A DNA stretch of 64,000 nucleotides from assembly GCA_963575745.1 (NCBI GenBank), contig CAUYUJ010000114.1:62001-126000 (forward strand). Reading direction: 5' to 3'. The notes below the pieces were generated by a model. That model saw only the letters and a program-made list of their open reading frames with translations. It did no database searches and was not told the DNA's origin. The position numbers were made by a program, and so were the translations under genes. Origin of the DNA: Prorocentrum cordatum (taxonomy: Eukaryota). Positions 101 through 34,710 of this stretch are shown in pieces (the stretch's first letter is position 1; every line of letters starts with the position of its first letter).

Positions 101-126
101 ATATATATATATATATATATATATAT
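101..126. repeat. (AT)n microsatellite
   Basis: Direct read of the atatat run. Confidence 0.95.
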
Positions 127-224: not shown

Positions 225-1914
225 CTAGCGGCTAGCGAGGGGCGAGGGACGAGGGACGAGGGATGTGTATTGTCGTATTTCGGAAGGGCTGATTCGACGC
301 CCGACTCCCGACTCCTCCTGCTTGCTCTGAAGATTGGTGACCAGTGGCGTAGCAGCATCGATCTTGGAATTGATATCGTTCATCTCGCCGAGGAGCTTGT
401 CGACGCTGTCCAAGGCGCCGCTAGCGCCAGTGATCAACTCCTCCGAGCCCGACGTGAGGATCTTAATCTTATCAGGTCCTAGAGCGATGTTCATCTTCTT
501 CTTGAGTGAAGTCATGTTGGTCGTCGTGACTCCGTGGACCATCTGCTCGTCTTCGAGCCTATGGATCACGCCCTGGCACTCCAACAAGGCTGCCTTTGCG
601 AACTGCTCGGCGCCCGCTCGTTTCTTGCGGTCGCCGCTGCTGCCTCCGCCACCACCGCCACCCGAGCCGCCGCCTGCGCCGCCTGCGCTGCCTCCTGCGC
701 CTCCGCGGCCTCCTCCGCCGCCGCCGTTGCCGCGGCGGTTGCCGCCGCCGCCGCCGTCGCCCATCGCCATCACCGCCGGCGCTGTTCGAGCTCTTGCCAC
801 CTTTAGACTTGACGATGGGTCCGAAGAGAGCGTCGTAGGGGTCATAGTCCTTGTCGTCGCTGTCGGCGCCGGCCTTCCTCTTCTTCGCGTCGGGCAGCTT
901 GACCTTCACGTAGTTGCCATCCGCATCGCCCGCCGCTTTAGTCGCGTCGTTGCCCTTGGTTATGGTTGGCTTCAACTTGGCCGCTACCTTCTTGAAGGCC
1001 GCGTCAGCGTCGTTCGCCGGGAGCTCGTTGTGCACGGTGACTTCAGCGCCAGATATCGAGCTCAGCTCAATGCACCCAGCAATGAACGGGATCGTTGATG
1101 AGAGTGCGATTCCTGGAAGGAGCGCCCGAACACAGTACACAAGTACACAGTGAGCGCGAGGAGCAGAGAACCGCTCCTCTCTCTCGAATCTCGAATCTCG
1201 AACGAAGAACGAATAATGAAGAACAAAGAATGCTGACGGGTGAAGGGTGAAGGGCGAAGGGTGAAGGGGCGAGAGGATGAGAGTTGAGAGTCCAAAGTCT
1301 AGTGGCAACTGGCAACTGGCAGCTGTCGACTGTCGAACGAGTAGGAGCAGGGAGGAGAGAGGAGGGGAGACAGGAGACAAGAGACAAAGGAAGGGGCGGG
1401 GGAGATGGGAGATGGGGCGAGGATCGAGGAGTCGAGGGGGAGGGATGGCGTTACGAGTTCATTGTCCAGTGTCCAGTCCTGTGAGGTCGGTGTTACCATG
1501 CCTGTGCTGCGTGCTGAAAGACGCAGGCAACTTCTTGCTGAAGTGTTCCTCGTAGATCGCCTTCGGCCAGCATGCCCCGCACTTCATCTTGCCCACCAGC
1601 TTGAGAGTCTCCGTGGCTCCAACAGTCTTCCTCGACTTCTTCGCGCGCCGCTTCCCAGAATGATCGGCGGCGTCAAATTCCTCCTGCTCCTGTCTGAACC
1701 GCTTCTGTCTCTCTGGTCCATCCCTCTCGATGTCCTTCTCAAGCTGCTTCCTCTCATCCTTATCAGCGTAGTTCCACTGGAGGTAGCTCGTGCACTGCCG
1801 ACACTGACAGCCCTCTCCGCCGCGAGTCCAGGTTACCTCCAAGCTGGAACGCCCGCACCACTTGCAGAACTTCTCCCTGTTGGAACCCTCGCTCCCCGAG
1901 TTGGATACGGGCAT
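225..1914 (-). CDS. Unknown protein with N-terminal CxxC..CxxC zinc-binding motif; at least 2 exons, frameshifted near 760
   Basis: Exon 1 is 1914-1479 (MPVSNS..FCKWCG..CQCRQCTSY..NTDLT). A GA..AG intron at 1478-1113 joins it in phase (aca g|ga atc) to exon 2 (GIALSSTIPF..). The frame switches near 760 into the Gly-rich, helical part of ORF 225..845. The 3' end is uncertain. Confidence 0.6.
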
Positions 1915-3015
1915 CGCTGGAGCCCGGCAGCCCGTGGACGTAGGATCCCAGATGAGTTGTGAGTAGGGCAAGCACAGCAACCTGCACAAAACAAACTCCT
2001 GCCAAACCAAGCGGCTCGAATGGTGGCGGCGGCCAGGAGTAGCACTAGCAACTAGCAGTGGGCAGTGACAAAACAAAGGGGTATACCGAGCAGACCTGAC
2101 CCCCCCACCCGCCGTGGGACTTGGGACCTCGGAAGGAGGGGGTCGAGCGGGGGAGAGGAGAGAGGAGAGGGGGAGGAGGAAGAGGGGGAAGGAGGAAGGA
2201 GGAGGGAGGAGGACGGAGGACCAGAAGGAGGAGAACAGCGGAGGAGGCGGAGGGAGGATAACGCACCCAGTGAACGAAGCCCGTCGACCGTCGATACATG
2301 CACCACGCGCGCTCTTGCATGCCAGGCGCCGCGGAGCCCCTAGCCCAGCGCCCAGCGCCCAGCTGTGGACGGCGGGCGGCCAGCGCGAGATGCTCGATGC
2401 TCGATGCTCGATGCTCGATGCTCTGACGCCTGACGCCGTGCGCTCTGAGCTCTGAACTCTGAAGTCTGACGTCTGACAACGCGCACAGGTCTGCTCGGCT
2501 TGAAGAGGGCAACGGGCAAAGGGCAACGGGCAACGCGCAACGCTGCATCAGGCATCAGGCATCCGTGCCTCAGCTAGCTACAGTCGGCAACTCGCCTAAA
2601 ATGTGAAACCTGAACTGTGAACTGTGAACTCGTCACTCGTCAGCTCGACTGTCGACGGCTCTCGGCCCTCGGCACCCGCAACCCGAAACCCGCATGCCGC
2701 ATGCCGCGTTAATATATTCGCTCTTCGCTCGATCCTCTTTCCCCTAGCTTATCTATAAATGATATATACTATGTCCCATTTCCTATCTCCTATCCCCCTA
2801 TCTCTCTCAATCACTTTCTCTCATGTATTGCTGTCTTGCGTATTGCTCTCGCCTCTCGCTCACACTCCTCCCTCCTCCCTCCTCGCTCCTCCTGGAGAAA
2901 TCTAAAGGCCTCCAGCCCCTGGCAATGGGCGCCCCGCCTCATAGGTTGAGTGTCGCAGCTGAACCTGGTCCGTCACCCGTCACCGTCGTCCTGGATCGCC
3001 CCGGGTGCTCCATCG

Positions 3016-3821
3016 TCACTCGTCACTCTCGTCGCTGTCGCCGTAGCCCACGCCCATGAGATTGTAACCGACAGCCATGGCCCGTTGTGCGTCAGCGTTC
3101 TGCGGCATGGCACGAATGCGCAAGCGCATCTCGCCGAGGAACACGCTCAACACCACCTGCGCGACCGTGCAGGCGGATGAGTCGAATGCATTGCCGGCCA
3201 TGTTCTTCAAAAACGAAGAACTGAACTCCATCATACGACCGGCGACCTCGCTCGCCCGCGGCTGCGGCCCGAGCAATTCACCGACGAGGGAACCCATCAT
3301 CATCAGATGTTCCACTCCATGGGCAAGCCTGCCCATATGAGCTAGATAAACCAAGCTCTTCTCGGTGAGGCACGCCGAACCATGCTTGATGAGCTCGCGG
3401 GAGCGACCGAAGGACATGTTGACATCTACGGTGCTCGGCTCATCCTCTGGCAATGACAAGTTGAGTCTCTCCAGCATGTCGAGCTGCCTGGCGGCCAACG
3501 CCTTCAAACCTGGATATCGCGCGGCCGCGCCCTCCTCCCGGAACGGCGAGGGCTGCCACCAAACAGAACCAGCCTTATTATTCCACACGGCGTGTCTGCC
3601 AGGCCATAAAGGGGCGGCCTCCTTCTTCTGTTTCTTCCGCGGCGGCTCAGCCGTCGCTGAGGAATTCACGTAGTCCTCTAGGCTGGCGTGTCTCTCCGGG
3701 AGAAGGAACTCGTCCAAGGGGGCCGCAGGGTGGTGGGACAGGCGGGCCAACACGGCCAGCGCCTTCGCCGCGAACTCCTCCTGCGAGACGCCAGCGGCCT
3801 CGAGCAAATCGTTCTTGACAC
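3016..3821 (-). CDS. DNMT exon 4 (target-recognition region, motifs IX-X)
   Basis: Acceptor ttctaag|gt gtc aag aac gat. ORF 3016..3807 contains DVNMSFGR, SACLTEKS, GVEHLMMMG and MAGNAF. Confidence 0.85.
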
Positions 3822-6800
3822 CTTAGAACCCCCGCCAATCGCAAATCGGGGCGCGGGGCGCAGAGAGGGGAAAGGGAGAAGGTAGGGGAGATGGGGGGCG
3901 ATGACAGAGAACAGAGACGAGAGAGGGGGGGCGGGGATGGGGATGGAAGAGGCGAGAGACAAGAGGAAGGAGGAAAGGGACGGGGAGGAGGGGAGAGAGC
4001 AAGGGAAAAGGGGAAGGAGCAGGGGGGGGATGTGAGAGGGAGGGGAGGAGGGAGGGGGGGAGGGGGGGGGGAAGAAGCGGGGGAAAAGGTGAATGTGGGA
4101 GAAGGGAAAAGAGGACAAAGGTGGGGGGGAAATACGTAAGATGGGGGAGGGAGGAAGGATGAGGGACGAGGGAGAAGGAATCAGGGCCCACGGCGTCGCA
4201 ATATTCCATTGGTTGGGGCTTGCTTGCGCCATCGGTTGCGCCCTCGTCCGCCGAGAATCAAACAAGCTCTTATTGCTTGCGCCATAGGTTGCGCCCTGGG
4301 GCGCCGAGAATAAAACGGGCCCCTAACATATGCGACCAGTTCAGTCCAGTCCAGTCCAGTTCAGCTTACTACGCGAAAAACAAATTCGGGCTACGCCCGA
4401 CAACAATCAAAACTAAGCTCGGCGACATGTTTAGTTTTTGTTTTCTGTGCGCGCACCTACGCAGATGCATACGTGCATATTGCGTATGGCAAATATGCAC
4501 ATAGCGAACACGCGGCCCGACGCCCGAACAAATAACCAATTGCAGGGCCCGGCTCCCGACTCCGTGCAATTGAGAAAAACAGAAAACAGAGATGCCCTTA
4601 TCCCCTCCCACCTCCCACCTCCTTAACGGTTGCGCGCAGAGAGAAGTTCGGATCCCGGGGCCCGAGGCAGTGCGAAGCACGGGACATGGGGCGCGCGACA
4701 TCGCGGGGGCGCACTCGCGCGCCCCCGCGCTTCACGCGCGGCACAACGCGCAACCCCATACCCCATGCCCCCATCGCGCGCGCGGGGGGGGGGGCGTTAG
4801 CGCGCGGCGCGCGGCCCCCTCTCCCCGCGCGCGGATGCTTCCCCCCGTGGGGCCGCGAAACGTTTGGGGCATGGGGAATGGGCGGGGGCACGGGGGATGA
4901 GGAGTGGGAAATGGGAAATGAGGATGAGGAGTGGGGAGCGGGGAATGGGCGGGGCGAAATCATTTCATGTGGATGCAGACGCACCCGCTGGGGGCTGGGG
5001 CCTTAGGCCTTAGGCTTTAGACCTTAGATTCTGAATTGAGCTCCCAACGGGGTCGCGAAGCGCGAAGCGTGGGAGGGGCGCGCCGAAAACCGAGGCGGGG
5101 GGCGGCGCGCGGGCGCGCGGGCGCAGCCGCTCGGGCTTCAGGCTCTAGCCAGGCGATGCGACGGGGGCCCCCGCCCCCCCTTAGGATGTCGGTCGTTTGA
5201 CTGTTTGACTTGTTTCTTGTTCGGTGGTCGGGGGTCTGGGATCTGGGGGCCGAGGTCCGAGGTCCGAGGGGATTGCATAATGGATAATCAGCGGTCTCCA
5301 CTGCGGCTGGGGGCTGGGGAGGGGGGATGGGGGGAGGGGCGAGGAGCTCAAACGCCGCGGCCTCGACGCCTTGACCTCGTTGACATTGTCAACCTGGTGG
5401 ACGGGCTGGCCGCGCTCCACCGCGCGCCGCGTTCTTCAATCAACGCGCTGCAGGCTGCAGCTTGGATGGCGTTGTTGTCGGCTCGGCCGGCCTCCTTCAG
5501 GGGCGCCGCGCAACCCTCCAGCACCATCCTGCGGCAACCCGAGTAGTTAGCGTCGGGGCCGAAAATGCGCGCTGCCAGGGGCAACGGGCAACAGCCCGGC
5601 GCCCCCACCAGCCGCGCGGCTCAAATGGGGCCGCCCTGGGGGCCGGGAGCGGCATGTGGACGCAGCCGCTGGAAGCTGGAAGCTGGACCTCGCGCCTTTT
5701 GCTGCGGCCAGCGGCCAGCGGCCAGCGGCCGGCGGCGACGCGCGCGAGGCTCTCATCTTTGACGCGCACGAAACGCGCGCTTCGAGCTCATAGCCCGACG
5801 GCCCACGGCCTGCGGCTTGCGGCATGCATCTCCACCTCCGAAGCGCCGTCTTCGTCCATGGGCCCACGTTACCCAAGATGTGGGATGTGGGATGCGGCCT
5901 TCGCGCGCCTCTCCGTCCGCAATGCCATCCTCGGACGCGCCTGCGCGCGCGGCGTGCATCGCAAGAGGCAGGCGTCCATCCTAGAACTCGCGACAAGAGG
6001 CAAGAGACAAGACCGGGTAATATTTGAGAGCCCCCACGATGCGCTTCGCACGCTCGGGCGAGGGTGCAGCGACCCGCCGCGTGGCCGATGCGGGCACTTG
6101 GCGAAATGCAGGTAGGACGTAGGACGTAGGACGCGAGCTCGGGCTTGCTCTGCCTTGTCCGCTATCGCCTCAAGTCGCTCAAGGGGCATGAAGCTTCCCT
6201 TGCCATCGTGCGCAGTCAGCTGCGGCGCGATTCGGTCGGCCGTCAATTGCCCGAGACAAAAGACAGGCCAGCCGCCGGCGCGGCGAAGGCATCCGCATAC
6301 TGCAACAAAGCAGTGTCCACCATGTCCTTCGCCATCTTGCCCAACGAGTTTTTACTTTCGTCGCTCTCTGCGGCGTTCCGCCTAACGTGGGCGACCTGTC
6401 AATCCGATTGACCTCTGCTACGCGGCCACGTGCGCGGCGCAAGGCTTGATCGCCGTCATCGTACGCATCAACGGATGCCGCGTGCTCTAAGAGCTGTGCT
6501 ATCACGTGCTCACGCCCGCGCCGCGCAGCGATATGGTGCGCAGAGCGCAGTGCCCCCCGCGGCGCCTGCTGAATGCTGAAGTCAACAGTCAACAGTCAAC
6601 AAGACATTCAAGCCACTCTTCGCGACTGGCGCAAGCGCGCCCACGGCTTACGGCTTGCAGCTTGCAGCTTGCGCAAGCCGAACCTGGTGCCTTGGTGCAC
6701 CATCGCCAGTCACCTAATTTCAGTCCATGTGCATCTGCATCGCCTCCACCTCGATCCTCGGCCCCCATCCCCCATCCGCCATCCGCCGCTGCTGCTCGCG

Positions 6801-7784
6801 CCTCGCGCCCTCTGCGCGCGCGCGGGCCAGCGCCCCCGGCCGCCGGCCACCGCTGCTTCCGCGAAATCGCGGCAGCTGGTCGCCAGAGAAAGTTTACGCG
6901 CCCTCTGCGACTCCTTGCGCGCACGTCCCACAAGGGGCAAGGGGTTCACCTGACCTCGCCGTTCCCATGACGGGGCGGTAGCCCGTGGGTCCGCGCAAGG
7001 ATGGGGGGCTCGCCAATGTTGGCAAGGCCGCGGTCAGAGGGTTTAACCTCTCTGGCCGAGCGCCGAGCGCCGATGGGCCATGGGGCGGCAAGTCGCAAGC
7101 GGCAACCACGCCGCGGGCGCTACATGCCCGGCCGCCGCGAAAACTTGCGGATCTGGGATCTGGCGCCGCGCGCCGCAGCCGCCGCGCGGCGCCCGGCGCC
7201 CCATGATGCGGGGCGCCCGCGAGGGCATTGTTGGGACAGGAGAAAGGAGAAAAGAGAAAGGACGACGACGAGGAACGAGGACCCATCACTTGCCGCTCGC
7301 GGCTCGCGCAGGCACGCGCGCCACGGCGGCAACCGCGCCTAAAGAAAAAAGAAAGGAAGTGGGGCAAGGCACAGGGCAAGGAGGGCGGGGGGCGCGAGGG
7401 ACATAAAATCAACAATCAACAACGAAACGTGTTTCTGGCGCGTCGCGCGTCGCGTTGGCCCGTTGACCGTTTCTGGTTTACGTGCATGCTGCGTGCCATG
7501 CGATGGCAAGCAACGCGCAAATCGCGGCGTACGCGTGTCCCGATGAAGGTTGTAAAAGTTGCGCGCGGCACGCGGTGCGCGCACGCGCCGTGTGAAGCAA
7601 ATGAGGGCAAGCGCAGCGCGTGGAAGTTAAGAACTTTCATGTTCAAGTAGTCGAAATCAAAAACATGCGTTCTATAGTCTATAATACAATCAACAATCAA
7701 ATTCATGTTACATTGCCACAGTGCCAGCCGAAAAGTTCGATAATCTGACGACTGGTTGTGGAGTGGGAAGATGTGCTCCAACAT

Positions 7785-7819
<35 letters not shown>

Positions 7820-10800
7820 CTCCTCATTCTCTCCTCTCTCGTAATCGACGCCGCGGACAAGCGGGTTGTCGACCTGCCTTGGATGCCTTCAGCCTTCAGG
7901 CGAGCTTGAGGCCGGCGCCGCGACAAGACACCAATGCGTCACACACACGCAAGCACACCTTTTCCACGCCTCCGCGGGGACACCTCCAGCGCGCAGCGCG
8001 TCCAACATAGTCCACAGCTCGCAGCCCACAAACGACGCATACCACATACACGCAACACGCAACCCACACGCACGCACACGCGCGCACCTCGCACCTCGCA
8101 CCTCGCACCTGTCACTTGTTTCCACCGCGGCGCGGCGAACGCGCTGTCGTGACACGTGACAGGCAACTAGAGACACGCGCACCGCGCACACACGCCCGCG
8201 CACCGCGCGCAAGCGCACTCTCTTTTTCATCCTCCAACGCCCAACGCGAGGACGACTCCAGCGGGTGCGCTATGAATCGGGATTCGGGATGCGAAACATA
8301 AATTGAATATTGAATTGCAACACACACGCACACATGCACGCACACACGCACGCACGTCACGCGTCTTCTGCGCACTCAACCTATTTCCCTACCGCCTAGA
8401 GCCTATAGCCTAGAGCCTAGAGTCATCCAATGCCGCCTAGAGTCATCTGTCATCCAATGCCAGGCGGAGCATGCGCCGACAAACGCATCCAATGCCGCCG
8501 AACGCCAAATGCAAATTTGCGAACCAATCTGGAATCTGGTCTCAGGCTGGCTCAGGTCATAGGTATTTGGCATTGGGGCTTGGTCTGAAATCTTAGGTGC
8601 ATGCGCGGGGAGAGCCAGAGGGTTCCAGGTTCCAGCGGAAGGAGGAAGGACCTAGGACCTACCACCTACGAGAAACGAAGCATGTAACATGGAACACTGA
8701 GCCTCATTTCAACATCTTAACGGGGTTGATACTCCTTCTGGGGGTCGGCGGAATGGCGCGAGCCACATGAACCATTGATCGCAAATCGCACTGGGGTTAC
8801 TCCTTACTCCTGAGCCCTGAGCTTGCTACGCTGCACTTTGCGACACCTGGGCCCTGGGGGGGGAGGGGGGAGAGGAGAGAGGGGAGGGGGGAGGAGGGAG
8901 GAAAGAAAGCGGAAGGAGGAGTGGGGAGTTGGGTGAAAAGGGAAAGGGGAGAGAAGGGAGGTGGAAGGAGGAAGGAGGAAGGAGGGCAAGAGGTAGGAGG
9001 TAGGAGGTAGGGAGCAGGGAGGTAGGGGGTAGGAGAGGGGAGAGGGGAGAGGGGAGAGGGGATTGGATACTGGATGGGGGGGGGGGGTCGGCAGGAGGCG
9101 GGAGGTGGGAGGTGGCAGGGGAGGAGAGGGGAATGCATTGCCTCCAACGGGGCGATCGGGCGATCGGGATCGTCGTCGTCGCGAGTCGTGAGTCATGAGT
9201 CTTTAGGTGCCGGGCGTCGGCACGACAACGGGCAAGTGCTTTGGAGCTTGGAGCTCGGCAAGGTCAGCTGTCAGCTCTCAGCTCCCTGCCCCTGACTCCC
9301 TGCTCCCTACGGGCTATGGGCCACGGGCTATGGGCTATGGGGCCACGGGCCACGAAGCGTTTGAGGTGCGTGCCGATTGCCGATATGGAATATGGAATAT
9401 GGAGATATAGACGGTCTGGGGTCCGGGGCCTGGGGCCTGGGGGCCTGGGGGGTGCGGGGATGCATGCGAACGGCGAACGGTGCCACCAGCAGGGGGCTCA
9501 GAGTTTTGTTTCGTGTGTATCTGCAGATTCCGAGTGCGGGGTGTGGAGTGTGGGGCGTGGGACTGGGGAACGGGGAAGGGGGGCTTGGGGCTTGCCCAGC
9601 ACCCAGCACCCAGCAGTGACGTGGCATGTGGCAGAGGGCAGAGGGCATGAGGAGATCGGAGATCAGGAGGTGAGAGGCGAGAGGTGAGAGGTGACGTGAG
9701 AGGTGAGACGCGAGAGGTGGAAGGTGGAGGGTGGGGGGTGGATGATCAAGAAGCAGGGATCAACCAAGCTTGGTTAGGGTAAGCGCCAAGGCCCAAGGCG
9801 CCCAGGCTGATGACTGCTGACTGCTGACTGTTTCCTGGTTTCTGATTCCAGCTTCCTGCTCCCTGCTCGTCGGGATTCGGGATGATGGCGGGAGGCGGCC
9901 TCTGCCCGGCGTTGCGGGCGGCGGCCTATCTCCCATCTGTCACCTTTCACCTTTGACCATTGTGTAGGCCGTAGGCGGTAGGCGTGCCAGAGGCCAGAGG
10001 CGAGATGCCAGATCAGATGTCATAATGCCAGAATCGGGATTCCTAAGCTAGTCTTGGCCTCTTGGCCAGGGCCATCCTGGCCCAGGATCGGAGCGCGCGC
10101 CTTGATTGGCCAGGGCATGGGGCATGGGGCATGGGGCATAGGGCAAGGGGCATGGAGTAAGGAATCGGAAGGCGGAGGGCGGAGGAGGATGCAGGAACTG
10201 GGGGGCGGAGGGAAAAGGGAGAGCGGGAGAGGGAGAAGGGGACATGGAAGTGGCAAAGAGCAAGGAGCAAGGATGGCGCCCACGCTGATCCCGGGCGCAG
10301 TGTGGCCGCGGCCTGGAAGCACTGAGCACTGCTGGGCAAAGATGGGACCTTCACCATCCATCACGAAGCGCCCTTGCCTGCTATCCGCCACCGTGCTCCC
10401 CTGGCACGCGGCACGCTGAGGCGTGGTACGTAACGCGTAACGAGGGGGCCGACGCCCAACGTGGCCCAATATGGCATATGGCCCCAGACGCCCAGACCCC
10501 AGACCGCGCCAGATGGAAGCTGGAAGCTGGAACAATATGGCTTCCTACCCCCGATCCCCTATACCCGTGGGCCGTGGGCCCGAGAGGGCCTCGGATGGAA
10601 GATGGAAGATGGACCCACGACCTAAGACCTAAGACCTACGACCCGCGATGTCATCGAGCATCGAGCATCGAGGCAGCCCCCCGAGATGCCGAGATGCCGA
10701 GAGGCGAGAGGCCAAGACAATCCAAAAAAGCCCCAGAATCCCACGGCAGGGGGAAGGGCCCCACAACGGCCGACGGCGCGAAAGGGACGCACGACGCACG

Positions 10801-13800
10801 ATAACCCCAGGAAAACAGAAAGCGGAGAGCCGCAGGCAGTGTATTTGAAAGGGTGCGCAGACCTGTGCAAGCGCGCAGGACCACTGATCACTTAGAGTCT
10901 AGAGAACAGAGAACAGAGAACTGCGTCCTCGCAAATTATGCGAGAGGGGGCAGGGGGCTGTAATGCCATGCCCCACTCGCTCCACTAGCTCGCTAGCTGC
11001 TAGCTCGCTGCTCACTTCCAAAGCCCCTGATCGTATTCTCACACACGCGCACCTTCCAGTCCAGGTCCGAGAGCCTACCCGAAGTCTCAGTAGTCTGCTG
11101 GTTCACCTGCGTCATCTGCCGATCTATCTGGTCCATGCGGTTGGTGATGGTCTGCATCTCATTAGTATTATGCCGGCTCACCTGCGTCATCTCCTGACCC
11201 AGCTGGTCCATGCGGTTGGTGGTGGCCTGCATCTGCTGCTCCGTATTGGCCAAAGCCAAGGTGGTGGCCAAGGCAGATGCTCTGTCACCTGCTCCGTCAC
11301 CTGCTGCTGCACCTGCTGCTCCGTCACCTGCTGCTGCACCTGCTGCTCCGGCACCTGCTGCCGCACCTGCTGATCCGCTCGATCCGCCCGATGCCGCGGC
11401 TGCCTCCAGTGCTTGCCCGCGTGCCTCGGAGGCCTGCAGGCGATCATTTGCATCCCTAAGCTGCCTCTGGAGCTGTTCTGAGCATCCCTCAGCCGCCTGG
11501 AGACGATCCTCCATTGCCTTCATGCGCTGGTCCCAGCCCGCTAGATGCCGCACGAAGAATTGCTCCAATGGCTCCTGCAAGCGAGTCGTCATGCCCATCA
11601 CGCGCTGGTCCGTCTCCAGCAGCTGATCCTGCACTTGCCGCAATTGATCCGATAGTTGGTCCTGGATGCGCTGGACCTCGCGCTCGGCCTCCTGCAAGTT
11701 GGTCTCCGCGCTGGACATCGTCGTCTCCACGTCCTGCAGATGGGTCCCCGCGCGGGTAGCCGTCGCCTCCGCGCGCTGCAACGTGCCCTCCGCCTCCTGC
11801 ACCTGATTCGCCAGGCTATCGCGAACCTCCTGCGCCCGCTGCAGAGTCTGCAGAGTGGTGTCCACAGTCTTGCGAAATGCAGCCGCCTCGTTCGCCTGGG
11901 CCTGCGACCACGCTGGCCAAGACTGACCTGCACCATCACTTGGAGCAGCTGCTGCCTGAGTGGGCTGCCCGCGGAGCTGCCTGTCATCACCAGCTGCTGC
12001 CGCAACGCCTGCACCTGGCGGAGCTCCTGGTGGCGGACTTGGCCGAGGCGGAGGAACTGGTGCCGCTCCCGCTGCGGCTCCCGCTGCCGCTGCCGCTGCC
12101 GCTGCCGCGTGCCGGACGCCGCCCCACGAGGCTGGGCGCGGGGGCCGCTGTGGGTTCGAGATCACAGCATCCTCTTGGCCAGATTCTTTCAACCACGCCA
12201 TCAAGAGTGCATCAACACTGCTCAGGTGCTTCTCCGACATCAGGTGGGTGTCCCAGTCCGCGTGTTCCCCGCGATTGCAGCAGTACGCGTTGCAAAGTTC
12301 GCAATGAAAACATTGCCACTCAGGTACATACTTGAGGTAGTTGACGGGCTCCATAGTCGACTCCCAGACCTGCGGCGCGATCATGGCTGTCGTCGGCGTA
12401 GCCCTGCGAGACATGTCTGCAGGCTGCGCCCGCCGCCCGCACTATGAGAAGGCAGTTCGCTGTTCGCTAGCCGCTAGCTGCTAGCTGAATGCTGAATGTC
12501 GACAGCTGAAAAGTCGATGCTCAATGCTCGACTGGATGTCGAGCGTCGAGCCAAAACGACTGCGGCCATCGGCCATCTCGCGTTTCGCGCTGGCACTTTG
12601 CATGGGGGCTTCTTGGAAGCCTTCTAGGGGGCCGGGGGCCTGCTGAAAGCGCCGAGCGTCGAAGTTCGTGTGCCCCCATCCCCCATCTTGGATCTTGGGG
12701 TCCTGGATCCTGGATCCTGGGCCCAACGCTCTCTGATCTCTGACCCAGTCCGCGACGCGCGGTTACCTTCGCGCCCCGCGCCCCTGGGGCGCGACCGGCG
12801 ACCTAACATCTTGCAGTGACCAATTGCCCTCGCACCTCGCACCCCCCCCCCCTCCCCCCCGAGCCCCGAGGGGTGATGGGGGGGAGAGATGCGAGATGAG
12901 GAATGAGAGGGGAAGGAGAGGGGAGAGGGAAGATGGGAGGGAGAGGGAGGAGGGAGGAGGGAGGTGGAGAGTGCGACTGCATACTGCATACTGCATGATG
13001 CATGATGCACGAGGGATTGGGGCTTGGGGCTTGGGGCGGTTGGAAGAACGAGTGAAGAATGAAGAATGCAGGATGCAGGATGCAGAATGGGATGCGGGAT
13101 GCGGCATGGACAGCGGGTTGGCATGGGAGATGAGAGATGGGAGATGGGAGGGAAGAGGGAAGGGAAGAGGGATGAGAGGGAAGAGGGGAAGGGGGACGGG
13201 GCCGAGGGTCGAGATGGGGGATTGGGGATGGGGGGAGGGGGAGGGAGAATGAGCGGTGGGAGGTGGGAGGGGTGGAGGGTGGAGGGTGGAGGGAGAAGAG
13301 AGGAGAGAGGAGAGAGGAGAGGGGAGAGGGGGGAGGAGGGAGGGAGGAGTGGGAGAAGAGAGGAGAGAGGAGAGAGGAGAGGGGAGAGGGGGGAGGAGGG
13401 AGGGAGGAGTGGGAGGAGGGAGGAGGGAGGAGAGGGGCGAGCGGGAGTTGACGGTAGACGGTAGACGGTAGACGAGCAGGTCTCGGGCCTCGAGGTGACA
13501 GATCACAGATCCCTGTCAGATGTCAGATGTCAGATGTACGACGTAGGACGCAGGACCCAGGAACCCAGGACTCAGGATCTCAGGATGGCTGATGGCTGAG
13601 AAGGAGACACAAAATGTAAAGGCGTGTTCGCGAACAGGGGAAGCCAAAATGCCTGGGATCCAGCTGCAAGGTGACCGAGGCAAAACCGGCCTCTGTGCTG
13701 AGGCGGTACACCGCCACGTCCAGGTTGGAGGGCCCCATGATGGTGTACTTCCCCCCCGCCGACATGTGCCTCGGCGGGGTCTTCGCGGTCTCGACATTCT

Positions 13801-22445: not shown

Positions 22446-22460
22446 GGAGCGAATGAGCTC

Positions 22461-22482: not shown

Positions 22483-23479
22483 GCTGCTGGGCTGCTGGTG
22501 CCTGATGCCCTGAGCAGTGAGCAGGGCAACATTACGAATTACGAATAAGATATAAAATGCGATTCCTCCTTCTCCCTTCTCCTCCCCCCTCCCTGATCCC
22601 TCCCCCCAGCAACTCTCTCTTGCACTCTTGCACAGGCGCGCGGCGCGCGCGCGCGCCGCCCCCCGCTTCGGCGCCTCGGAGTTGGCGTGGGGGGAAACGA
22701 CGACGACGACGCCTCCTCCTCCTCCTCCTCTCCTCTCCCCCTCCGTACTCCTCCAGCTCCACGCCCCCCGTCTCCTCACTCATCATTCCTCATTCCACAT
22801 CCACTCCACCCATCCTCCTGCTTCCCCTTTCATCTTTCTCCTACTGTAAACGAGGAAGGAGAGGAGAAGGCAGACGGGGGGGGCAATCGCGTGGGAGAGG
22901 AGAGAGGAGAGAGGAGGGAAGAGGGCGGGGAGGCGGAGGAGCGGAGGAGGGAGAGGTGGAGGGGGGAGGGGGGATGGGGCAGGCGGCAATCAGAAGGGGG
23001 AAGGGGGGGCAGGGAGCTGGCGGAGGAGGGGGCAGGAAGGAGGAAGGGGCAACTACTGGCGAGCAGTTTGCTTCACCAGTCAAATGACTGACCTTTGGCG
23101 GTGGCCAACGGCTCACACCGAGAAACGAGAAACTGGGAAAGCAGCATCCCAGGAGCCGGGAAGCCCGTGCATGGGGGCCACGAGGTTCACGGTTTACGCG
23201 GGCAGCAGAGACCAACGGGCTAGGTGGGATAGGAGAGAGGCGGGGCCAGAAACACGCCCGGCGCGTGTCGCGTGCCACATGTCACGCGACACGCGGTCAC
23301 CCGGCCGCGCGCCGCGCGGCGCGCAATCGCGCGTTGCGCGCCGCGTGAGATGACATACAACAGGAGCTTGCTCACAAAGAAGAGCATGTGTGGATCGGCC
23401 ATACTGGGGAGGAATCCAGCCGCCACCTGCCCAGGGACTGAAGCCCTGCGCTCCACCGAACATGTGGCCTTCCCCCTTC

Positions 23480-23680
23480 TCGCCGAGGAAGCCCTCGTCG
23501 CCGAAGAAGCCCTCCTCGCCGAAGAAGCCTTCCTCGCCGATGAAACCCTCCTCGCTCCACGCCTCAAGCGGCAAGCGGCAATCTGCCTCGCCGAAGACCG
23601 GAGAACGACGAAACCCTCGTCGCCGAAGAAACCCTCCTCGCCGAAGAAAACCTCATCGCCGAAGAAAACCTCCACCTCCA
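23480..23680. repeat. 18-bp tandem repeat (gccgaagaarccctcstc), two clusters
   Basis: Translates as SSPKKP repeats on + and FFGEEG repeats on -. Confidence 0.8.
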
Positions 23681-23737
23681 CTCCCCGCTCCTCGCACATC
23701 ACTCAAGCCTCATGCCTCAGGCCTCAGGCCTCAGGCC

Positions 23738-32029
<8,292 letters not shown>

Positions 32030-33166
32030 GGCCGCCAGCCGCCAGCCGCAGCGCGCGGCGCGAAGGGCCGAACGCCCTGGGCCCAAGGAGGAGGAAGAAG
32101 GAAGAGGAGAGAGGGAAGAGCAGGAGCCTCCTCCTCCTCAGCATTCAGCACTCAGCACTCAGCATCCAGCATCCTCTATCCTCCTCCCTCCTCCTCCCTT
32201 CCTCCCTCCTCCTCTTCTTCCCGCATCCCCCCTCCCTCCTCTTCAATTTTCTCTTCGTCCTCTCAGCTCTCAGCGTTCTCTTCATCATCATTCATCCTTC
32301 ATCCTTCATCATTCATCCTCTCATCCTCTCAGACTTCTCATTTCTCATTGCTCATTTCTCTTCCTCATCTCTCATCTCCTCCTCCTCCTCCTCCTCCTCC
32401 TTCCTCCTCGCTCCTCGTCCCCCTCCTTCTCCTTCTCCTTCCTCCTCCCCCTCCTCCTCCCTCCCCCCATCCACCCTCCATGATCCTTACCCCAGCGGCG
32501 CGCGCGGCGCGCGCGGCGCGCGGCGCGCGCGCGCCCGCCTCGAAGTTGAAGACGTCGGCCGGGCGGCGCGACGAATGACGACGGCGACGACGACGACGAC
32601 CGACGACGACGACCCCCGCGTCGACGCCGACGCCGACTCTGACGACGACGACGACAACCGACGACGACGACACCCGCGTCGACGCCGACGCTGACGACGA
32701 CGAAGGGGAGAGGGAGCGGACAGCGGACAACAACCAAGCGACGGAGGAGAGCAGCATGGTGGCGAAGGACCCAGTCATAGCCTGGCGAAGAACCCAACCA
32801 TAGCCTGGCGAAGGACCTAGCCATAGGCCATAGCCCATAGCCCATAGCCCGGCGAAGGACCCAGGGGAGGAGACTGCGGAGTGCGGCGGAGGCGGAGAGG
32901 AGAGAGGAGAGGAAAGGAGGAGAGAGGAGAGAGGAGGAGAGGCAGAGGATCAGAGGATGACGGATGAGAGGAGGAAGGAGGATGGAGGATGGAGGAAGTA
33001 AATCGTTAAGAGTATAGAGGATGCCCTGCGACTTGCGAATGGACGGAGGACGGAGGACGGAGGGCGGAGGAAGAGGACGAGAGGACGAGATTGGCGATTT
33101 TTCTTCAGCCGCCGACCCCTCCACGCTTCCCGCTTCCACGCTCCACGCGTGGTCCACGCTCCACGA

Positions 33167-34495
33167 CTACCCAATGCGCATATACAAATATGAGTAGCGA
33201 ATGGGCCTAATCTCCAGCCCTCTTGCATCGTCTACAGTGTTATTCATATTCGAACCCAGCGAGTCGTGAATTGCCATCTTCTCGGCCGCCGCGCACTGGC
33301 GGTCTGGCATCGATGCCACAACATGCATTGCTTTATGGTCCACGCAATGGGGGCGCATATCTTTGTCGCGACGGCGACGGCCGTCGCCGTCATCGTCGAG
33401 AAAGCCAGGGCCACCTAGAAACCTCCACTTCGGATCAGACGTCGTGCCAATGTATATTGGGCGGCGGCCCGCGCTCTTGCGCAAGTACCTCAAACGGGCG
33501 CGCCACTCCTCCTCGTGGACGTCTAGCAGCGGCTGGTGCACCACAATCCTAATGTCGTCTATGTCCTTGCACTGCTGAGGCACGTCGTCACGCGCCATCT
33601 CCCAGAGCACGCGATGCCGATTCTCACGAGACCGTGAACGCATCCGACGCATGGCGAGGCCTGTGCGATCATCAGGGCTCCTTCTGGGGCCTGCGCCAGC
33701 AGCAGCCTTCTTATCGGGGCCCCCATCATCGTCGTCGTCACTGGCGATTTTCACGACCTCGCCGACGTCTTCGACTGCTGCAAGAAGCTCGCCGACGTCT
33801 TCGACTGCAGGCGGCGCCCATGCCGGGCTCTTTGTAGATTTAGTGCGAGCGCCGACGCCATCATCATCATTGTATTGACTCAGCCAACTTTCATCACTGC
33901 TTTGACTCAGCATCGTCTGAGATGATGCTCCCGCTGCTCTGCCCTCGCCTCCAGCGACTAGCGGGAGCAATGCACCATGGGCCGAGGAATGCGGCCCAGC
34001 CTCCTGGCCATTGCCGCCGCCGCCACCCGCTGCTCTGCCGCCCATCTCATCCTGCTGGTCGATGACGGGCTTGACCTCCTCGACGTTGCCACCGCCGCCG
34101 ATTTCATCAGCTGCTCTGACGCGCATCTCCGGCTGGTCGATGATGGGTTTGACCTCGCCGGCGCTGCCACCGCCGCCAGATGCATCAGCTGCTCTGGCAC
34201 CCATCTCCTCCTGCTGGTCGACAATGCGTTCGGCCTCGCCGGCGCTGCCACCGCCGCCAGATGCATCAGCTGCTCTGGCACCCATCTCCTCCTGCTGGTC
34301 GACAATGCGTTCGGCCTCGTCGGCGCTGCCGCCGCCGCCATCGTGCTCGACGGCGCCCTGAATCCGCTGCCGCTCGCACCGCTCGATGAAGTCCTCGACT
34401 GCATTGGCCATGCAAGTCATCTCGTTCTTGTACTTTCCCTTGTTGACGGGTGGTCGGTTCTTGGCCGACGCAGGCAAGGGGGCCGCGCGACTCAT
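33167..34495 (-). CDS. Intronless protein with 27-aa repeats and a C-terminal GIY-YIG-like nuclease domain (apparently permuted)
   Basis: RPIYIGTTSDPKWRF..H..AAAEKMAI..NMNN..G..YSYLY supplies YIG-T, Arg, Glu and Asn in GIY-YIG order. An 81-nt repeat occurs about 4 times at 34000-34340. Confidence 0.7.
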   Translation of the reverse strand: MSRAAPLPASAKNRPPVNKGKYKNEMTCMANAVEDFIERCERQRIQGAVEHDGGGGSADEAERIVDQQEEMGARAADASGGGGSAGEAERIVDQQEEMGARAADASGGGGSAGEVKPIIDQPEMRVRAADEIGGGGNVEEVKPVIDQQDEMGGRAAGGGGGNGQEAGPHSSAHGALLPLVAGGEGRAAGASSQTMLSQSSDESWLSQYNDDDGVGARTKSTKSPAWAPPAVEDVGELLAAVEDVGEVVKIASDDDDDGGPDKKAAAGAGPRRSPDDRTGLAMRRMRSRSRENRHRVLWEMARDDVPQQCKDIDDIRIVVHQPLLDVHEEEWRARLRYLRKSAGRRPIYIGTTSDPKWRFLGGPGFLDDDGDGRRRRDKDMRPHCVDHKAMHVVASMPDRQCAAAEKMAIHDSLGSNMNNTVDDARGLEIRPIRYSYLYMRIG

Positions 34496-34683
34496 CAAGG
34501 GCTCCCAGCTTCGCGCTTCGCGCTGCGCGAAGCGCGAAGCGCGAGTAACTTCGCGCTCTCGCGCCGCCTCCCAGGGGGGAAGAGGAGGATGCGGAATCGG
34601 AGCCGAACCGCGAAGCGCGAATAACTTCGCGCCCTCGAGGGCGCCCTTGACTCATAGCCCTGCGGCCTCTGAGCCCTGAGCCC

Positions 34684-34710
34684 TGAGCCAAGAGCCAAAA
34701 CGGCTATGGT
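34684..34710 (-). other. Relict spliced-leader-like sequence carrying a 7-nt duplication
   Basis: Minus strand reads accatagccgttttggctc[ttggctc]ag versus ACCGTAGCCATTTTGGCTCAAG (17/19 before the duplication). Confidence 0.8.

What the first reader, a model, noticed from the sequence alone, without database searches (positions are those of the whole stretch)
225..34710. Pervasive 7-nt tandem micro-duplications confined to the left block
Seen: a very large number of unrelated heptamers are duplicated in tandem. Examples: ggcaact x2 (1304), gatgctc x5 (2389-2423), gacggta x3 (13450), gactcca x3 (14441), tcgaccc x4 (18837), gcctcag x4 (23714), ggaaggc x4 (26188) and ttggctc x2 inside the spliced-leader relict (34685). 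The period is fixed but the sequence is arbitrary. They are dense in introns and spacers, nearly absent in exons, and rare beyond about 35.9 kb. Inference: a sequence-independent fixed period fits staggered 7-nt cuts repaired by fill-in (TSD-like footprints without insertion, possibly made by an element-encoded enzyme) or a special replication mode, better than ordinary slippage. Exon sparing implies purifying selection while the process was active.
Basis: partly seen in the sequence, partly recalled or inferred. Interest (0 to 1): 0.85.

Follow-up and report, generated by a model that had tools for sequence, protein, structure and literature searches.

The report
Pervasive exact 7-base micro-duplications
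In the left 35 kb of this dinoflagellate-like DNA, the non-coding sequence is riddled with hundreds of clean head-to-tail duplications of exactly seven arbitrary bases that have roughly doubled its length, while the right 28 kb has none; this looks like the trace of an undescribed, enzyme-measured mutation process.

Summary
There are 373 exact tandem 7-mer duplications in 1-35,900, against 2.5 expected from shuffles. In 35,901-64,000 there are 3, against 2.2 expected. Lags 6 and 8 are not raised.

The events are discrete and measured:
- 83% of arrays have exactly two copies.
- Lag-7 run lengths peak at exactly 7, with no microhomology beyond chance.
- There is no target motif, no polarity, no gapped or inverted forms, and no TIR elements with 7-bp flanks.
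- With a strict unit filter the size spectrum is 7 (289), 8 (24) and 6 (19, the same as the control block).

A model of uniform random 7-nt duplication plus point substitution reproduces the lag-7/14/21 decay, the run-length histogram and the copy-number distribution without any slippage term. The model implies that about 40-50% of the heptamer-rich DNA was made this way. It also implies the process was still active, or stopped no more than about 0.1 substitutions/site ago.

Regions with coding periodicity are spared. Three spliced-leader relicts show that the process post-dates retroposition.

The mechanism is inferred, not shown. The best fit is a 7-nt staggered break, fill-in and blunt joining. 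No enzyme or transposase/DNMT was found. A genome-wide test was impossible because no genome is held. Why the process stops at 35.4-35.9 kb is unresolved: the right block may be younger, the process may be regional, or the assembly may be chimeric.

The parts
1..35335 (.). Left block. Its non-coding parts carry the 7-nt duplications: 373 exact events, and 32 heptamer-rich segments totalling 14.5 kb.
2083..2859 (.). Heptamer-rich segment (lag-7 identity 0.53). Contains GATGCTC x5.
8790..10286 (.). Heptamer-rich segment (lag-7 0.56, G-rich on + strand).
12411..13608 (.). Heptamer-rich spacer just upstream of the SL-like relict of the 10,996-12,441 ORF (lag-7 0.60, 35 exact events per kb).
14138..16157 (.). 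Two heptamer-rich segments (14,138-14,788 and 15,215-16,157) in the same spacer.
17790..19706 (.). Longest heptamer-rich segment (lag-7 0.57). Contains TCGACCC x4.
20344..21235 (.). Heptamer-rich segment.
22743..24418 (.). Heptamer-rich segments (22,743-23,335, 23,636-23,783, 24,141-24,418). Contains GCCTCAG x4.
31812..33129 (.). Heptamer-rich segments (31,812-32,553 and 32,824-33,129). The second is covered by an independent short-read contig of run X1.
12548..12562 (-). SL-like relict (2 mismatches to TAGCCRTTTTGGCTC) upstream of ORF 10,996-12,441, flanked by heptamer duplications.
17833..17847 (-). SL-like relict TAGCCGTTTTGGCTC upstream of ORF 16,330-17,844.
34670..34712 (-). SL-like relict upstream of ORF 33,170-34,651. 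Its 3' part has TTGGCTC duplicated and GGCTCAG present three times, so the duplications post-date retroposition.
10996..12441 (-). Example of a spared ORF with codon periodicity (1 exact event in 1,446 bp).
33170..34498 (-). Spared ORF (0 exact events in 1,329 bp). It has four unnamed homologues with a conserved C-terminal domain of about 150 aa.
30390..31880 (+). Heptamer-free, very high-copy unit of about 780 bp, present as two tandem copies about 2% apart. A young insert inside the left block.
35336..35900 (.). Block boundary, made of low-complexity DNA: (GAC)n, then a 33-nt satellite of 12.6 copies (35,474-35,876). (CTG)n, (AT)n and (GTC)n lie just to its left, from 34,700. No contig bridges it.
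35901..64000 (.). Right block with no period-7 signal (3 exact events against 2.2 expected). It has ordinary repeats of period 3, 6, 8, 10-12, 33 and 44, and a weak RT fragment at 49,037-50,134 (-).

Best explanation
The non-coding DNA of the left block records a mutational process that inserted, at essentially random positions, an exact head-to-tail copy of the adjacent 7 bases (8 bases in about 1 case in 13).

Shown:
- The events are discrete, length-measured and sequence-independent.
- They have no microhomology and no polarity.
- They accumulated neutrally in spacers and were removed from coding sequence, where a 7-nt insertion shifts the frame.
- They occurred after the local genes had been retroposed.
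- In total there are about 0.07-0.09 events per base, roughly one duplication for every 3-5 point substitutions. About 40-50% of the heptamer-rich DNA was therefore created this way.

Inferred:
- Each event most likely arose from a double-strand break with 7-nt 5' overhangs. Both overhangs were filled in and the blunt ends joined without homology. This is the route known to turn Top2 (1-4 bp) and Cas9 (1-2 nt) staggered breaks into clean de novo duplications.
- The nuclease (or transposase/integrase-like enzyme) that sets the 7-nt ruler is unidentified.
- The sharp stop at 35.4-35.9 kb is most simply explained if the activity ended 0.03-0.1 substitutions/site ago and the right block is repeat-family DNA that arrived later. 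The same would hold for the 780-bp high-copy unit inside the left block.
For: Size spectrum: 289 primitive-unit duplications at k=7, 24 at k=8, and k=5, 6 and 9 no higher than in the control block. Lags 6 and 8 are not raised in the pooled rich segments (0.342 and 0.325 against a base of 0.33, with lag 7 at 0.541).

Discreteness:
- Lag-7 run lengths peak at 7, with shoulders at 5-6 and a second bump at 13-14.
- The tail for run lengths 7-10 is 129, 76, 38, 20, which matches chance extension at p of about 0.33. No microhomology is needed.

No slippage term is needed:
- Observed copy classes 2/3/4/5 are 83.3/14.3/2.1/0.3%. The uniform model gives 85-87/11-12/1.7-2.4/0.4%.
- The same model fits the normalised lag excesses 7/14/21/28 (observed 0.319/0.131/0.057/0.014) and the run-length histogram.

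No sequence or strand preference:
- No target motif: less than 0.09 bit at any of 30 positions, n=128.
- No polarity: 92 against 98.
- No gapped (X-n-X) or inverted forms.

Age and timing:
- The ratio of exact to one-mismatch events is homogeneous across 18 spacers (chi-square p=0.42).
- Time since the process stopped fits at 0-0.1 hits/site and is rejected at 0.2.
- The SL-like relict at 34.7 kb is itself hit.

Same genome, later DNA:
- Pieces of the right block occur in run X1 both as identical contigs and as contigs 4-7% diverged, so it is a repeat family.
- The tetranucleotide signature of the two blocks is alike, r 0.78-0.90 once the trinucleotide-rich chunk is left out.

Precedent for the fill-in route: the abstract of 10.1101/2020.05.03.075358 and passages of PMC10105512.
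Against: - No enzyme was found. Pfam gave no nuclease, transposase or DNMT in the ORFs scanned.
- No known eukaryotic enzyme that I could find in print makes sequence-independent 7-nt staggered breaks on its own.
- DDE transposases create staggered gaps only while inserting an element, and no such elements remain here.
- The age explanation for the right block is uncertain. That block contains internal repeats only 70-73% identical. If these arose in place, they are older than the allowed time since the process stopped.
- One X1 contig differs from the window by 7 gap letters at about 1% divergence. This could mean recent activity, although slippage loss of an existing copy would look the same.
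- The model was fitted to segments that were selected for high lag-7, so the estimates of density and growth are biased upwards.
- Only one 64-kb window was available.
Confidence: 0.55

Rival explanations
1. Footprints of a cut-and-paste transposon family with 7(-8)-bp target-site duplications. Each insertion duplicated 7 bp, and later precise excision left the two copies joined.
For: - The fixed length with a minor 8-nt class (289 against 24) resembles the narrow TSD spectrum of a transposase.
- From recall, no call: the P superfamily is listed with 7-8 bp TSDs. Galileo appeared in the listing under the term '7-bp duplications'.
- Sequence independence.
- Dinoflagellate genomes carry many non-autonomous DNA elements (passages of 10.1101/2020.10.14.339549).
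Against: - 0 candidates with 10-nt TIRs flanked by exact 7-, 8- or 9-bp direct repeats in the left block.
- No footprints with extra bases between the copies: lags 8-11 give 7, 7, 4, 11 on the left against 2, 5, 10, 10 on the right. Most known excision reactions leave untidy footprints (recalled, no call).
- The density would need an insertion plus a perfect excision about every 12 bases.
- No transposase domain was found.
- The dinoflagellate introner-like elements described in the passages I read have TSDs of 3, 4, 5 and 8 nt, not 7.
Confidence: 0.12
2. Replication slippage or strand misalignment in a lineage whose mismatch repair removes loops of up to 6 nt. The smallest unrepaired loop, 7 nt, would then dominate.
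For: - The size spectrum is one-sided: 7 >> 8 > 9, with nothing above control at 5-6.
- A 7-letter gap between an X1 contig and the window inside an array region is what slippage on existing repeats would give.
Against: - De novo slippage needs the primer end to re-pair, so duplications should carry junction microhomology. The run-length tail shows none beyond chance.
- Slippage rates rise with copy number, but the copy-number distribution equals that of a model with no such rise.
- A 12-fold drop from 7 to 8 nt is steeper than a repair threshold alone would predict (inference).
- It does not explain why 28 kb of similar composition is untouched.
Confidence: 0.12
3. The process is real but regional. 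It acts only in a particular chromatin, transcription or replication domain, such as a transcribed one-directional array of retrogenes, and the right block lies outside that domain.
For: - All 18 left spacers share one age structure, and the switch is abrupt and total.
- The right block holds internal repeats only 70-73% identical, so it may be old DNA.
- In the left block all three SL-like relicts and the large ORFs are on the minus strand.
- A passage of PMC12584245 says 5-hmU marks silenced transposable elements in a dinoflagellate, so domains with different DNA chemistry exist.
Against: - The large ORFs of the right block are also mostly on the minus strand.
- No expression data could be obtained.
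- The heptamer-free 780-bp repeat inside the left block is easier to explain by age than by domain.
Confidence: 0.2
4. The block contrast is an assembly chimera. Two related genomes, or a host and foreign DNA, were joined at the low-complexity stretch 34.7-35.9 kb, and only one of them has the 7-nt process.
For: - The junction lies exactly in (CTG)n, (AT)n, (GTC)n/(GAC)n and a 33-nt satellite.
- No contig of four runs bridges it.
- Word depth in X1 differs between the blocks: 13-18 at 33.1-34.5 kb against 1-4 over most of the right block.
Against: - GC content, GC3 and tetranucleotide signature are alike.
- ORF strand bias continues across the junction.
- Run X1 and metagenome X3 each hold exact pieces of both blocks. 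In X3 the depths are similar: 3.2-3.8 against 2.0-2.1.
- Even if true, this would not affect the reality of the heptamer process in the left block.
Confidence: 0.12
5. The rich segments are decayed long arrays of one ancestral heptamer satellite, for example telomere-like repeats.
For: Period 7 equals the length of the telomere repeat reported for dinoflagellates (recalled, no call).
Against: - Units are unrelated to each other and GC-rich.
- The periodic signal decays about 2.5-fold per step (0.319, 0.131, 0.057, 0.014 at lags 7, 14, 21, 28). A decayed long array would keep similar identity at all multiples of 7.
- 83% of exact arrays have only two copies.
Confidence: 0.02

Closest known systems
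De novo duplications from trapped topoisomerase II (yeast top2-F1025Y,R1128G, etoposide) and templated +1/+2 insertions from staggered Cas9 cuts
   Same: - Unique (non-repeat) short segments are duplicated head to tail.
- The length is set by the enzyme's stagger.
- The route is fill-in of 5' overhangs plus non-homologous end joining, with low microhomology.
Sources: abstract of 10.1101/2020.05.03.075358; passages of PMC10105512.
   Different: - Those duplications are 1-4 bp. Here the length is 7 (8% are 8).
- Those are laboratory or tumour signatures. Here the events have accumulated to about 0.08 per base and built roughly half of the spacer DNA.
- No enzyme with a 7-nt stagger is identified.
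Target-site duplications of DNA transposons and integrases (for example 7-bp TSDs of Galileo / P superfamily; introner-like elements of dinoflagellates)
   Same: - A fixed short length with a narrow spread.
- Little sequence preference.
- Made by gap fill-in.
   Different: - No inserted element lies between the copies, and no TIR elements with 7-bp flanks remain.
- There are no untidy excision footprints.
- Dinoflagellate introner-like elements in the passages read have 3-, 4-, 5- and 8-nt TSDs.
Microsatellite/minisatellite arrays made by replication slippage
   Same: Tandem repeats in non-coding DNA. Loss or gain of a unit in existing arrays probably does occur (7-letter gap in an X1 contig).
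   Different: - Two-copy 'births' dominate.
- There is a single period with hundreds of unrelated units.
- There is no copy-number dependence and no microhomology.
Heptanucleotide tandem repeats of bacteria (cyanobacterial STRR-type repeats, Xanthomonas/Nostoc heptamers; PMC4692102, abstract seen)
   Same: A preference for period 7, with several different units in one genome.
   Different: - Those are a few defined units in longer arrays, often in inverted pairs.
- Here there are hundreds of arbitrary units, mostly two copies, in a eukaryote-type sequence with SL-like relicts.
Repeat-rich/repeat-poor segmentation of Eimeria chromosomes (telomere-like heptamer and CAG repeats; PMC4287421 appeared in the listing; details recalled)
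   Same: Alternation of blocks with and without short repeats, including a heptamer and trinucleotide repeats, in an alveolate.
   Different: There the heptamer is one telomere-like unit. Here the units are arbitrary.

Membership tests
Slippage-generated microsatellite/minisatellite | The expansion rate rises with copy number, giving a long-tailed copy-number distribution. | tested here: not met
   Observed copy classes 2/3/4/5 are 83.3/14.3/2.1/0.3% of 287 arrays. This equals a model with no copy-number dependence.
Slippage-generated microsatellite/minisatellite | New repeats arise at sites with microhomology or chance proto-repeats. | tested here: not met
   The lag-7 run-length tail beyond 7 (129, 76, 38, 20) fits chance extension.
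Transposon target-site duplication / excision footprint | Direct repeats of fixed length flank an element with terminal inverted repeats, at least at some sites. | tested here: not met
   0 candidates for TSD length 7, 8 or 9 with 10-nt TIRs (1 mismatch or fewer) within 30-4000 bp in the left block.
Transposon target-site duplication / excision footprint | A narrow, enzyme-set length of the duplication. | tested here: met
   k=7: 289. k=8: 24. k=6 and k=9 at control level.
Transposon target-site duplication / excision footprint | A transposase gene of a family with that TSD length is present in the genome. | tested here: inconclusive
   No transposase domain in the window's ORFs. 46 of the 196 selected short ORFs (60-109 aa) were not scanned. 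The rest of the genome is not available.
Staggered-break fill-in duplications (Top2/Cas9 type) | A clean head-to-tail duplication of a unique sequence without junction microhomology or filler bases. | tested here: met
Staggered-break fill-in duplications (Top2/Cas9 type) | The duplication length equals the overhang length of an identified nuclease. | not testable with these tools
   No nuclease was identified. Known Top2 duplications are 1-4 bp.
Staggered-break fill-in duplications (Top2/Cas9 type) | Dependence on non-homologous end joining. | not testable with these tools
   This needs genetics in the organism.
Decayed satellite / interstitial telomere-like array | Units share one ancestral consensus, and the periodic identity persists over many periods. 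| tested here: not met
   Units are unrelated. The excess falls 0.319, 0.131, 0.057, 0.014 over lags 7-28.
Dinoflagellate-type nuclear DNA (context) | Relicts of the 22-nt spliced leader lie upstream of ORFs on one strand. | tested here: met
   3 matches to TAGCCRTTTTGGCTC (2 mismatches or fewer) against 0.24 expected. All are on the minus strand just upstream of large minus-strand ORFs. The canonical leader sequence itself is recalled. The same motif retrieved 126 stretches from metagenomes, many with stacked relicts such as L090.

The most novel reading that the evidence does not exclude
A dinoflagellate-type nucleus has, or recently had, an endogenous enzyme activity that makes sequence-independent double-strand breaks with a 7-nt stagger. 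Their error-prone repair inserts exact 7-nt duplications at about a third of the point-substitution rate. This would be a previously unrecognised mutational process. It can double non-coding DNA within about 0.3 substitutions/site, and so contribute to the enormous genomes of this group. It would act only in certain chromosome domains or epochs, so that period-7 density could serve as a clock or a domain marker.
Probability: 0.3. Interest if true: 0.9.

Novelty: new variant of a known kind. Interest (0 to 1): 0.78.

Why it matters
Natural genomes are not known to carry a dominant, fixed-length, sequence-independent micro-duplication signature. None of my ten literature searches, nor the dinoflagellate genome papers I opened, report one.

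If the signature is general in this organism:
- It identifies a new source of non-coding DNA growth in a lineage famous for giant genomes.
- It gives an internal clock, because each duplicate pair dates itself by its mismatches.
- It points to an unknown nuclease, or a repair peculiarity, with a 7-nt ruler.
- It makes the long-standing question of how dinoflagellate genomes expand directly testable, using strain resequencing or mutation-accumulation lines.

The abrupt block boundary would also offer a way to tell old from recently arrived DNA, or to map chromatin domains, from sequence alone.

Tried and rejected
Genome and other loci of the same organism
- No whole genome is held, so the genome-wide lag-7 test was impossible.
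- I scanned three collections with a 24-mer from a very high-copy element of this organism. The metagenome scan gave 0 hits and the viral scan gave 0.
- The prokaryote-genome scan gave one 592-nt contig inside a MAG. Searching that MAG with 6 kb of the window gave only low-complexity matches and no further loci of this organism.

Control in other dinoflagellate-type DNA
- A scan with a degenerate spliced-leader motif gave 126 stretches, held as 125 loci. Many have the motif at a contig end and look like transcripts.
- Among 19 genomic-looking loci of GC 0.45 or more (54.7 kb), exact 7-mer duplications were 14 (0.26 per kb).
- 2 of 190 windows reached an excess of 0.10. Both are in L025, which has two ordinary arrays of one unit.
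- This is a weak control, because the non-coding content of those loci is unknown.

Sequencing runs
- No RNA holder was listed, so nothing can be said on expression.
- No contig of X1-X4 bridges 35.4-35.9 kb, so this gives no verdict on the junction.

Annotation
- Pfam on 26 + 83 + 115 + 150 ORF translations (the sets overlap) gave only three weak matches: RVT_1 (49,037-50,134, E 1e-5), Zip and Mucin. The last two lie in trinucleotide-repeat ORFs.
- 46 of the 196 selected ORFs of 60-109 aa, all beyond 56.9 kb, were not scanned.
- Rfam gave 0 matches and tRNA search gave 0.
- The homologue search for 33,170-34,651 gave 4 unnamed proteins. The search for 37,189-38,787 gave none.
- The Atlas gave only unnamed clusters.
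- For the 33-34.5 kb family, the PDB profile search and Pfam gave nothing. The AlphaFold model had a mean pLDDT of 51 and was not searched. A GIY-YIG-like look of '...IYIGTTSDP..R' is my impression only.
- There is no paralogy among the large ORFs.

Earlier findings of this scan: 5 look-ups gave nothing on this genome. The bacterial heptamer-array and minicircle notes are unrelated.

Literature: ten searches found no report of pervasive 7-nt duplications. bioRxiv supplements are closed, and the supplementary datasets of the introner preprint could bear on TSD lengths.

Ideas rejected
- A sequencing or assembly artefact: an independent short-read contig covers an array region, exons are spared, and the copies show graded decay.
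- A decayed satellite: ruled out by the lag decay.
- Flap or long-patch-repair mis-ligation and polymerase-theta templated insertion: both should need microhomology or give variable lengths (inference).

Full report
WHAT THE WINDOW IS

The window is 64 kb at 60% G+C. It has no tRNA or Rfam hit and almost no Pfam-recognisable protein.

Three matches to an SL-type motif (TAGCCRTTTTGGCTC, 2 mismatches or fewer; 0.24 expected by chance) lie on the minus strand at 12,548-12,562, 17,833-17,847 and 34,692-34,706. Each sits just upstream of a large minus-strand ORF. This is the pattern of dinoflagellate-type retroposed genes that keep a relict of the trans-spliced leader. The canonical leader sequence is recalled, not taken from a call. 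The same motif pulled 126 stretches out of metagenomes, some with stacked relicts such as L090. I therefore treat the DNA as nuclear DNA of a dinoflagellate or close relative. No whole genome is held for it.

THE OBSERVATION

Tandem Repeats Finder lists 575 rows at score 30 or more. In the part printed (1-10,991) the great majority have period 7, each with a different unit.

- Lag-k identity over 1-35,900 is 0.388 at lag 7, against 0.335 at lag 6 and 0.287 at lag 8. Over 35,901-64,000 it is 0.249 at lag 7.
- Exact tandem duplications of a 7-mer number 373 on the left, against a mean of 2.5 in 20 dinucleotide-transition shuffles. On the right they number 3, against 2.2.
- After removing units that are themselves mono-, di- or trinucleotide runs, left/right counts are 15/11 (k=5), 19/20 (k=6), 289/2 (k=7), 24/2 (k=8), 5/6 (k=9) and 3 or fewer beyond, apart from multiples of 7.

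So the period is sharply 7. There is a minor class at 8, and nothing at 6 above the control block.

A 500-bp map shows the excess in 48 of 71 left windows and in 0 of 56 right windows. Among windows without codon periodicity it is present in 35 of 38 on the left and 0 of 26 on the right. Within the left block, lag-7 and lag-3 excesses are anticorrelated (Spearman -0.55, p about 1e-6).

Exact events per kb are 21.7 in the 32 heptamer-rich segments (14.5 kb, all on the left). They are 0.38 in ten left ORFs, which were partly chosen for low lag-7, and 0.11 in the right block.

An independent short-read contig of run X1 covers the rich stretch 32,704-33,103 with 4 differing letters and 7 gap letters. 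The arrays are therefore not a product of this assembly.

ANATOMY OF THE EVENTS

(1) Most arrays are single duplications. Of 348 exact arrays with a primitive unit, 293 have two full copies, 48 have three, 6 have four and 1 has five.

(2) The lag-7 run-length histogram has a peak at exactly 7 (129 runs), equal shoulders at 5 and 6 (127 each), and a second bump at 13-14. This is what intact and once-mutated 7-nt duplications give. For run lengths 7, 8, 9 and 10 the counts are 129, 76, 38 and 20. That matches extension by chance matches on either side at p of about 0.33, so the duplicated piece is 7 nt with no junction microhomology (the arithmetic is mine).

(3) At 128 events whose phase is unambiguous, no position inside or within 8 nt of the duplication carries more than 0.09 bit.

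(4) There is no excess of gapped repeats (X-n-X). At lags 8-11 the counts are 7, 7, 4, 11 on the left against 2, 5, 10, 10 on the right. The only enriched lags are 14, 15, 21 and 22. Adjacent inverted 7-mers number 6 against 4.

(5) There is no polarity. The odd copy of a triplet lies on the 3' side 92 times and on the 5' side 98 times.

(6) Between copies that differ at one site, transitions and transversions are 94 and 86.

(7) The ratio of exact to one-mismatch events is the same in all 18 spacers of 250 bp or more (chi-square p=0.42).

(8) In the pooled rich segments the identities are 0.541, 0.414, 0.364 and 0.335 at lags 7, 14, 21 and 28, over a base of 0.33. Lags 6 and 8 are 0.342 and 0.325. 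Indels of other sizes have therefore been too rare to blur the register.

A QUANTITATIVE MODEL

I simulated random sequence subjected to two things only. One is tandem duplication of a 7-mer at a uniformly random position. The other is point replacement.

With 0.2-0.3 duplications per base per replacement hit, over 0.3-0.4 hits per site, the model reproduces three observations:
- The normalised excesses: observed 0.319/0.131/0.057/0.014, simulated for example 0.303/0.113/0.045/0.022.
- The run-length histogram.
- The copy-number classes: observed 83.3/14.3/2.1/0.3% of 287 arrays in the rich segments, simulated 85-87/11-12/1.7-2.4/0.4%.

No copy-number-dependent (slippage) term is needed. Three- to five-copy arrays are what repeated random hits produce at this density.

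All good fits imply 1.6-2.0-fold growth, so about 40-50% of the rich DNA consists of inserted heptamers. They imply 0.07-0.09 events per base, about one duplication per 3-5 real substitutions.

Adding a quiet period after the activity fits equally well for 0-0.1 hits/site (best at 0.05) and fails at 0.2.

Caveats: the segments were selected for high lag-7, the substitution model is crude, and local compositional skew is not modelled.

TIMING RELATIVE TO OTHER EVENTS

The relict at 34.7 kb reads (minus strand) ...CCATAGCCGTTTTGGCTC-TTGGCTC-AGGGCTCAGGGCTCAGAGG. One heptamer of the leader is duplicated, and the next unit is present three times. The process therefore acted after this gene was retroposed.

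Inside the left block, a unit of about 780 bp of extremely high copy number is heptamer-free. Its word depth is about 36,000 at one site in X1. It is present as two tandem copies about 2% apart and shows no 7-nt indel between the copies.

WHY IT STOPS AT 35.4-35.9 KB

The boundary is low-complexity DNA. (CTG)n runs from 34.7 kb, followed by (AT)n, (GTC)n/(GAC)n and a 33-nt satellite of 12.6 copies.

Evidence that both blocks belong to one genome:
- G+C, GC3 of ORFs and tetranucleotide signature are alike. With rich segments masked, r is 0.78-0.90 between left and right 8-kb chunks, except for the trinucleotide-rich chunk at 40-48 kb.
- Large ORFs are mostly on the minus strand on both sides.
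- Run X1 and metagenome X3 each hold exact pieces of both blocks. In X3 the depths are similar.

No contig bridges the boundary, and X1 depth differs between the blocks (13-18 against 1-4). A chimeric join therefore cannot be excluded.

Pieces of the right block occur in X1 both as identical contigs and as contigs 4-7% diverged, so the right block is at least partly repeat-family DNA.

At the fitted rate, even 3% of divergence would have left about 100 events in its roughly 13 kb of sequence without codon periodicity (my arithmetic). At most 3 are seen. There are three ways to explain this.

(a) The activity ended before this DNA arrived. This is compatible with the allowed quiet period, and with the clean 780-bp unit.

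(b) The activity is confined to a domain.

(c) The join is artificial.

Against (a), the right block has internal repeats only 70-73% identical. These are old if they arose in place.

The 7-letter gap in an X1 contig at about 1% divergence could be a recent event. Loss of one copy from an existing array by ordinary slippage would look the same.

MECHANISM

What is shown is the shape of the footprint. It is an exact, clean, head-to-tail copy of 7 (sometimes 8) arbitrary bases, with no homology requirement, no sequence preference and no strand polarity.

Known routes to such a footprint are gap or overhang fill-in at staggered cuts:
- Target-site duplications.
- The de novo 1-4-bp duplications caused by trapped topoisomerase II through non-homologous end joining (abstract of 10.1101/2020.05.03.075358).
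- Templated insertions from Cas9 cuts with 1-2-nt 5' overhangs that are filled in and joined by C-NHEJ with little microhomology (passages of PMC10105512).

I therefore infer a break with 7-nt 5' overhangs, fill-in and blunt joining.

A pure insertion-excision history of a transposon with 7-bp TSDs is less likely:
- No TIR element with 7-, 8- or 9-bp flanks is left.
- There are no untidy footprints.
- The density would be extreme.
- The dinoflagellate introner-like elements in the passages I read have 3-, 4-, 5- and 8-nt TSDs.

Slippage with a repair threshold explains the one-sided size spectrum. It does not explain the lack of microhomology or the lack of copy-number dependence.

I found no nuclease, transposase or DNA methyltransferase in the window. 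The only enzyme-like hit is a weak reverse-transcriptase fragment, and it lies in the clean right block.

COMPARISON AND NOVELTY

In 19 genomic-looking, GC-rich, SL-bearing metagenome loci (54.7 kb), exact 7-mer duplications are 0.26 per kb, with no peak at 7. The signature is therefore not a general property of such DNA. The non-coding share of those loci is unknown, and many of the other loci are probably transcripts.

Ten full-text searches found no description of pervasive 7-nt duplications. Term searches in three dinoflagellate genome papers found none either. These were PMC10666404 (main text and two supplementary files), PMC12584245 and PMC7245778. Subscription papers and closed supplements were not searchable.

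VERDICT

The element-encoded enzyme is unsupported. Whether the process is genome-wide, regional or past remains open.

I rate it as a new variant of a known kind of event (staggered-break fill-in duplication), with an unusual length and an unprecedented evolutionary impact. The enzyme is still to be found.

Noticed in passing
12,548-12,562, 17,833-17,847, 34,692-34,706 (minus strand): All three SL-like relicts read ...CCGTTTTGGCTC, with G where the canonical dinoflagellate leader (recalled) has A. Of the matches counted in the 125 metagenome loci, nearly all had the canonical A there. One locus had G at that site and one had A at the other variable site. This may be a lineage-specific leader variant.
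   Followed up: partly
30,390-31,880: A unit of about 780 bp in two tandem copies about 2% apart. It carries a poly-T tract (9 against more than 100 T), (CAC)n/(CAGCAC)n, and a conserved piece ending ...AAAATCAGCGCCATGGTAAGG. Word depth is about 36,000 in X1 and about 140,000 in X2 at one site, so it is an extremely abundant repeat in at least two organisms. One copy sits as a 592-nt contig inside a gammaproteobacterial MAG, where it is probably contamination.
   Followed up: partly
34,510-34,632: A palindromic high-copy element (TTCGCGC...GCGAAGCGCGAATAACTTCGCGC, two copies 76 nt apart), located between the SL-like relict and the start of the ORF. Many X2 contigs join across the 77 nt between the copies.
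   Followed up: no
42,134-42,430: Another high-copy element, with summed word depth of 2,000-5,000 in X1 and up to 17,000 in X2. It contains GGCGCCATGAAATCTGGGGCAATATCATGGCC.
   Followed up: no
35,474-35,876: A 33-nt satellite (TAAGTGGCAGGCCTCTCTGGGAACGCCAAAAGA) of 12.6 copies at 89% matches, located exactly at the block boundary.
   Followed up: no
45,583-47,330: About 1.7 kb of degenerate trinucleotide repeat (TCA/CAT; 417 units at 68% matches). It gives long ORFs in several frames and spurious weak Zip and Mucin Pfam matches.
   Followed up: no
47,879-48,589 and 63,337-63,697: Several short arrays of period 11-12 with different units (CCAAGATGGCC, AGAGGCCCCCA, CGGGACACCGG, CACTATCGATCT). 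These explain the local lag 10-11 excess in the right block. Counts of exact 10-11-mer duplications do not differ between the blocks.
   Followed up: partly
49,037-50,134 (minus strand): A weak reverse-transcriptase match (RVT_1, E 1e-5, below the Pfam cut-off). It is flanked by stretches that are 70-72% identical to each other (47,347-47,678 / 50,933-51,255 and 48,711-48,922 / 51,321-51,527). This may be an old retroelement.
   Followed up: no
33,170-34,498 (minus strand): The ORF has four unnamed homologues (41-56% identity). They share a strongly conserved C-terminal domain of about 150 aa (...RIVVHQPLLDVH...RRPIYIGTTSDPxWRF...MHV.A..PD..CA.AE..AI...) that has no Pfam or PDB sequence match. 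The N-terminal half is low-complexity and variable, with an internal repeat of about 25 aa.
   Followed up: partly
heptamer-rich segments, e.g. 3,816-4,187, 13,860-14,057, 28,348-28,531: Many rich segments are strongly purine- or pyrimidine-skewed on one strand (GC skew up to +/-0.8), and the sign changes from segment to segment. This may simply be drift caused by repeated local copying, but it was not modelled.
   Followed up: no
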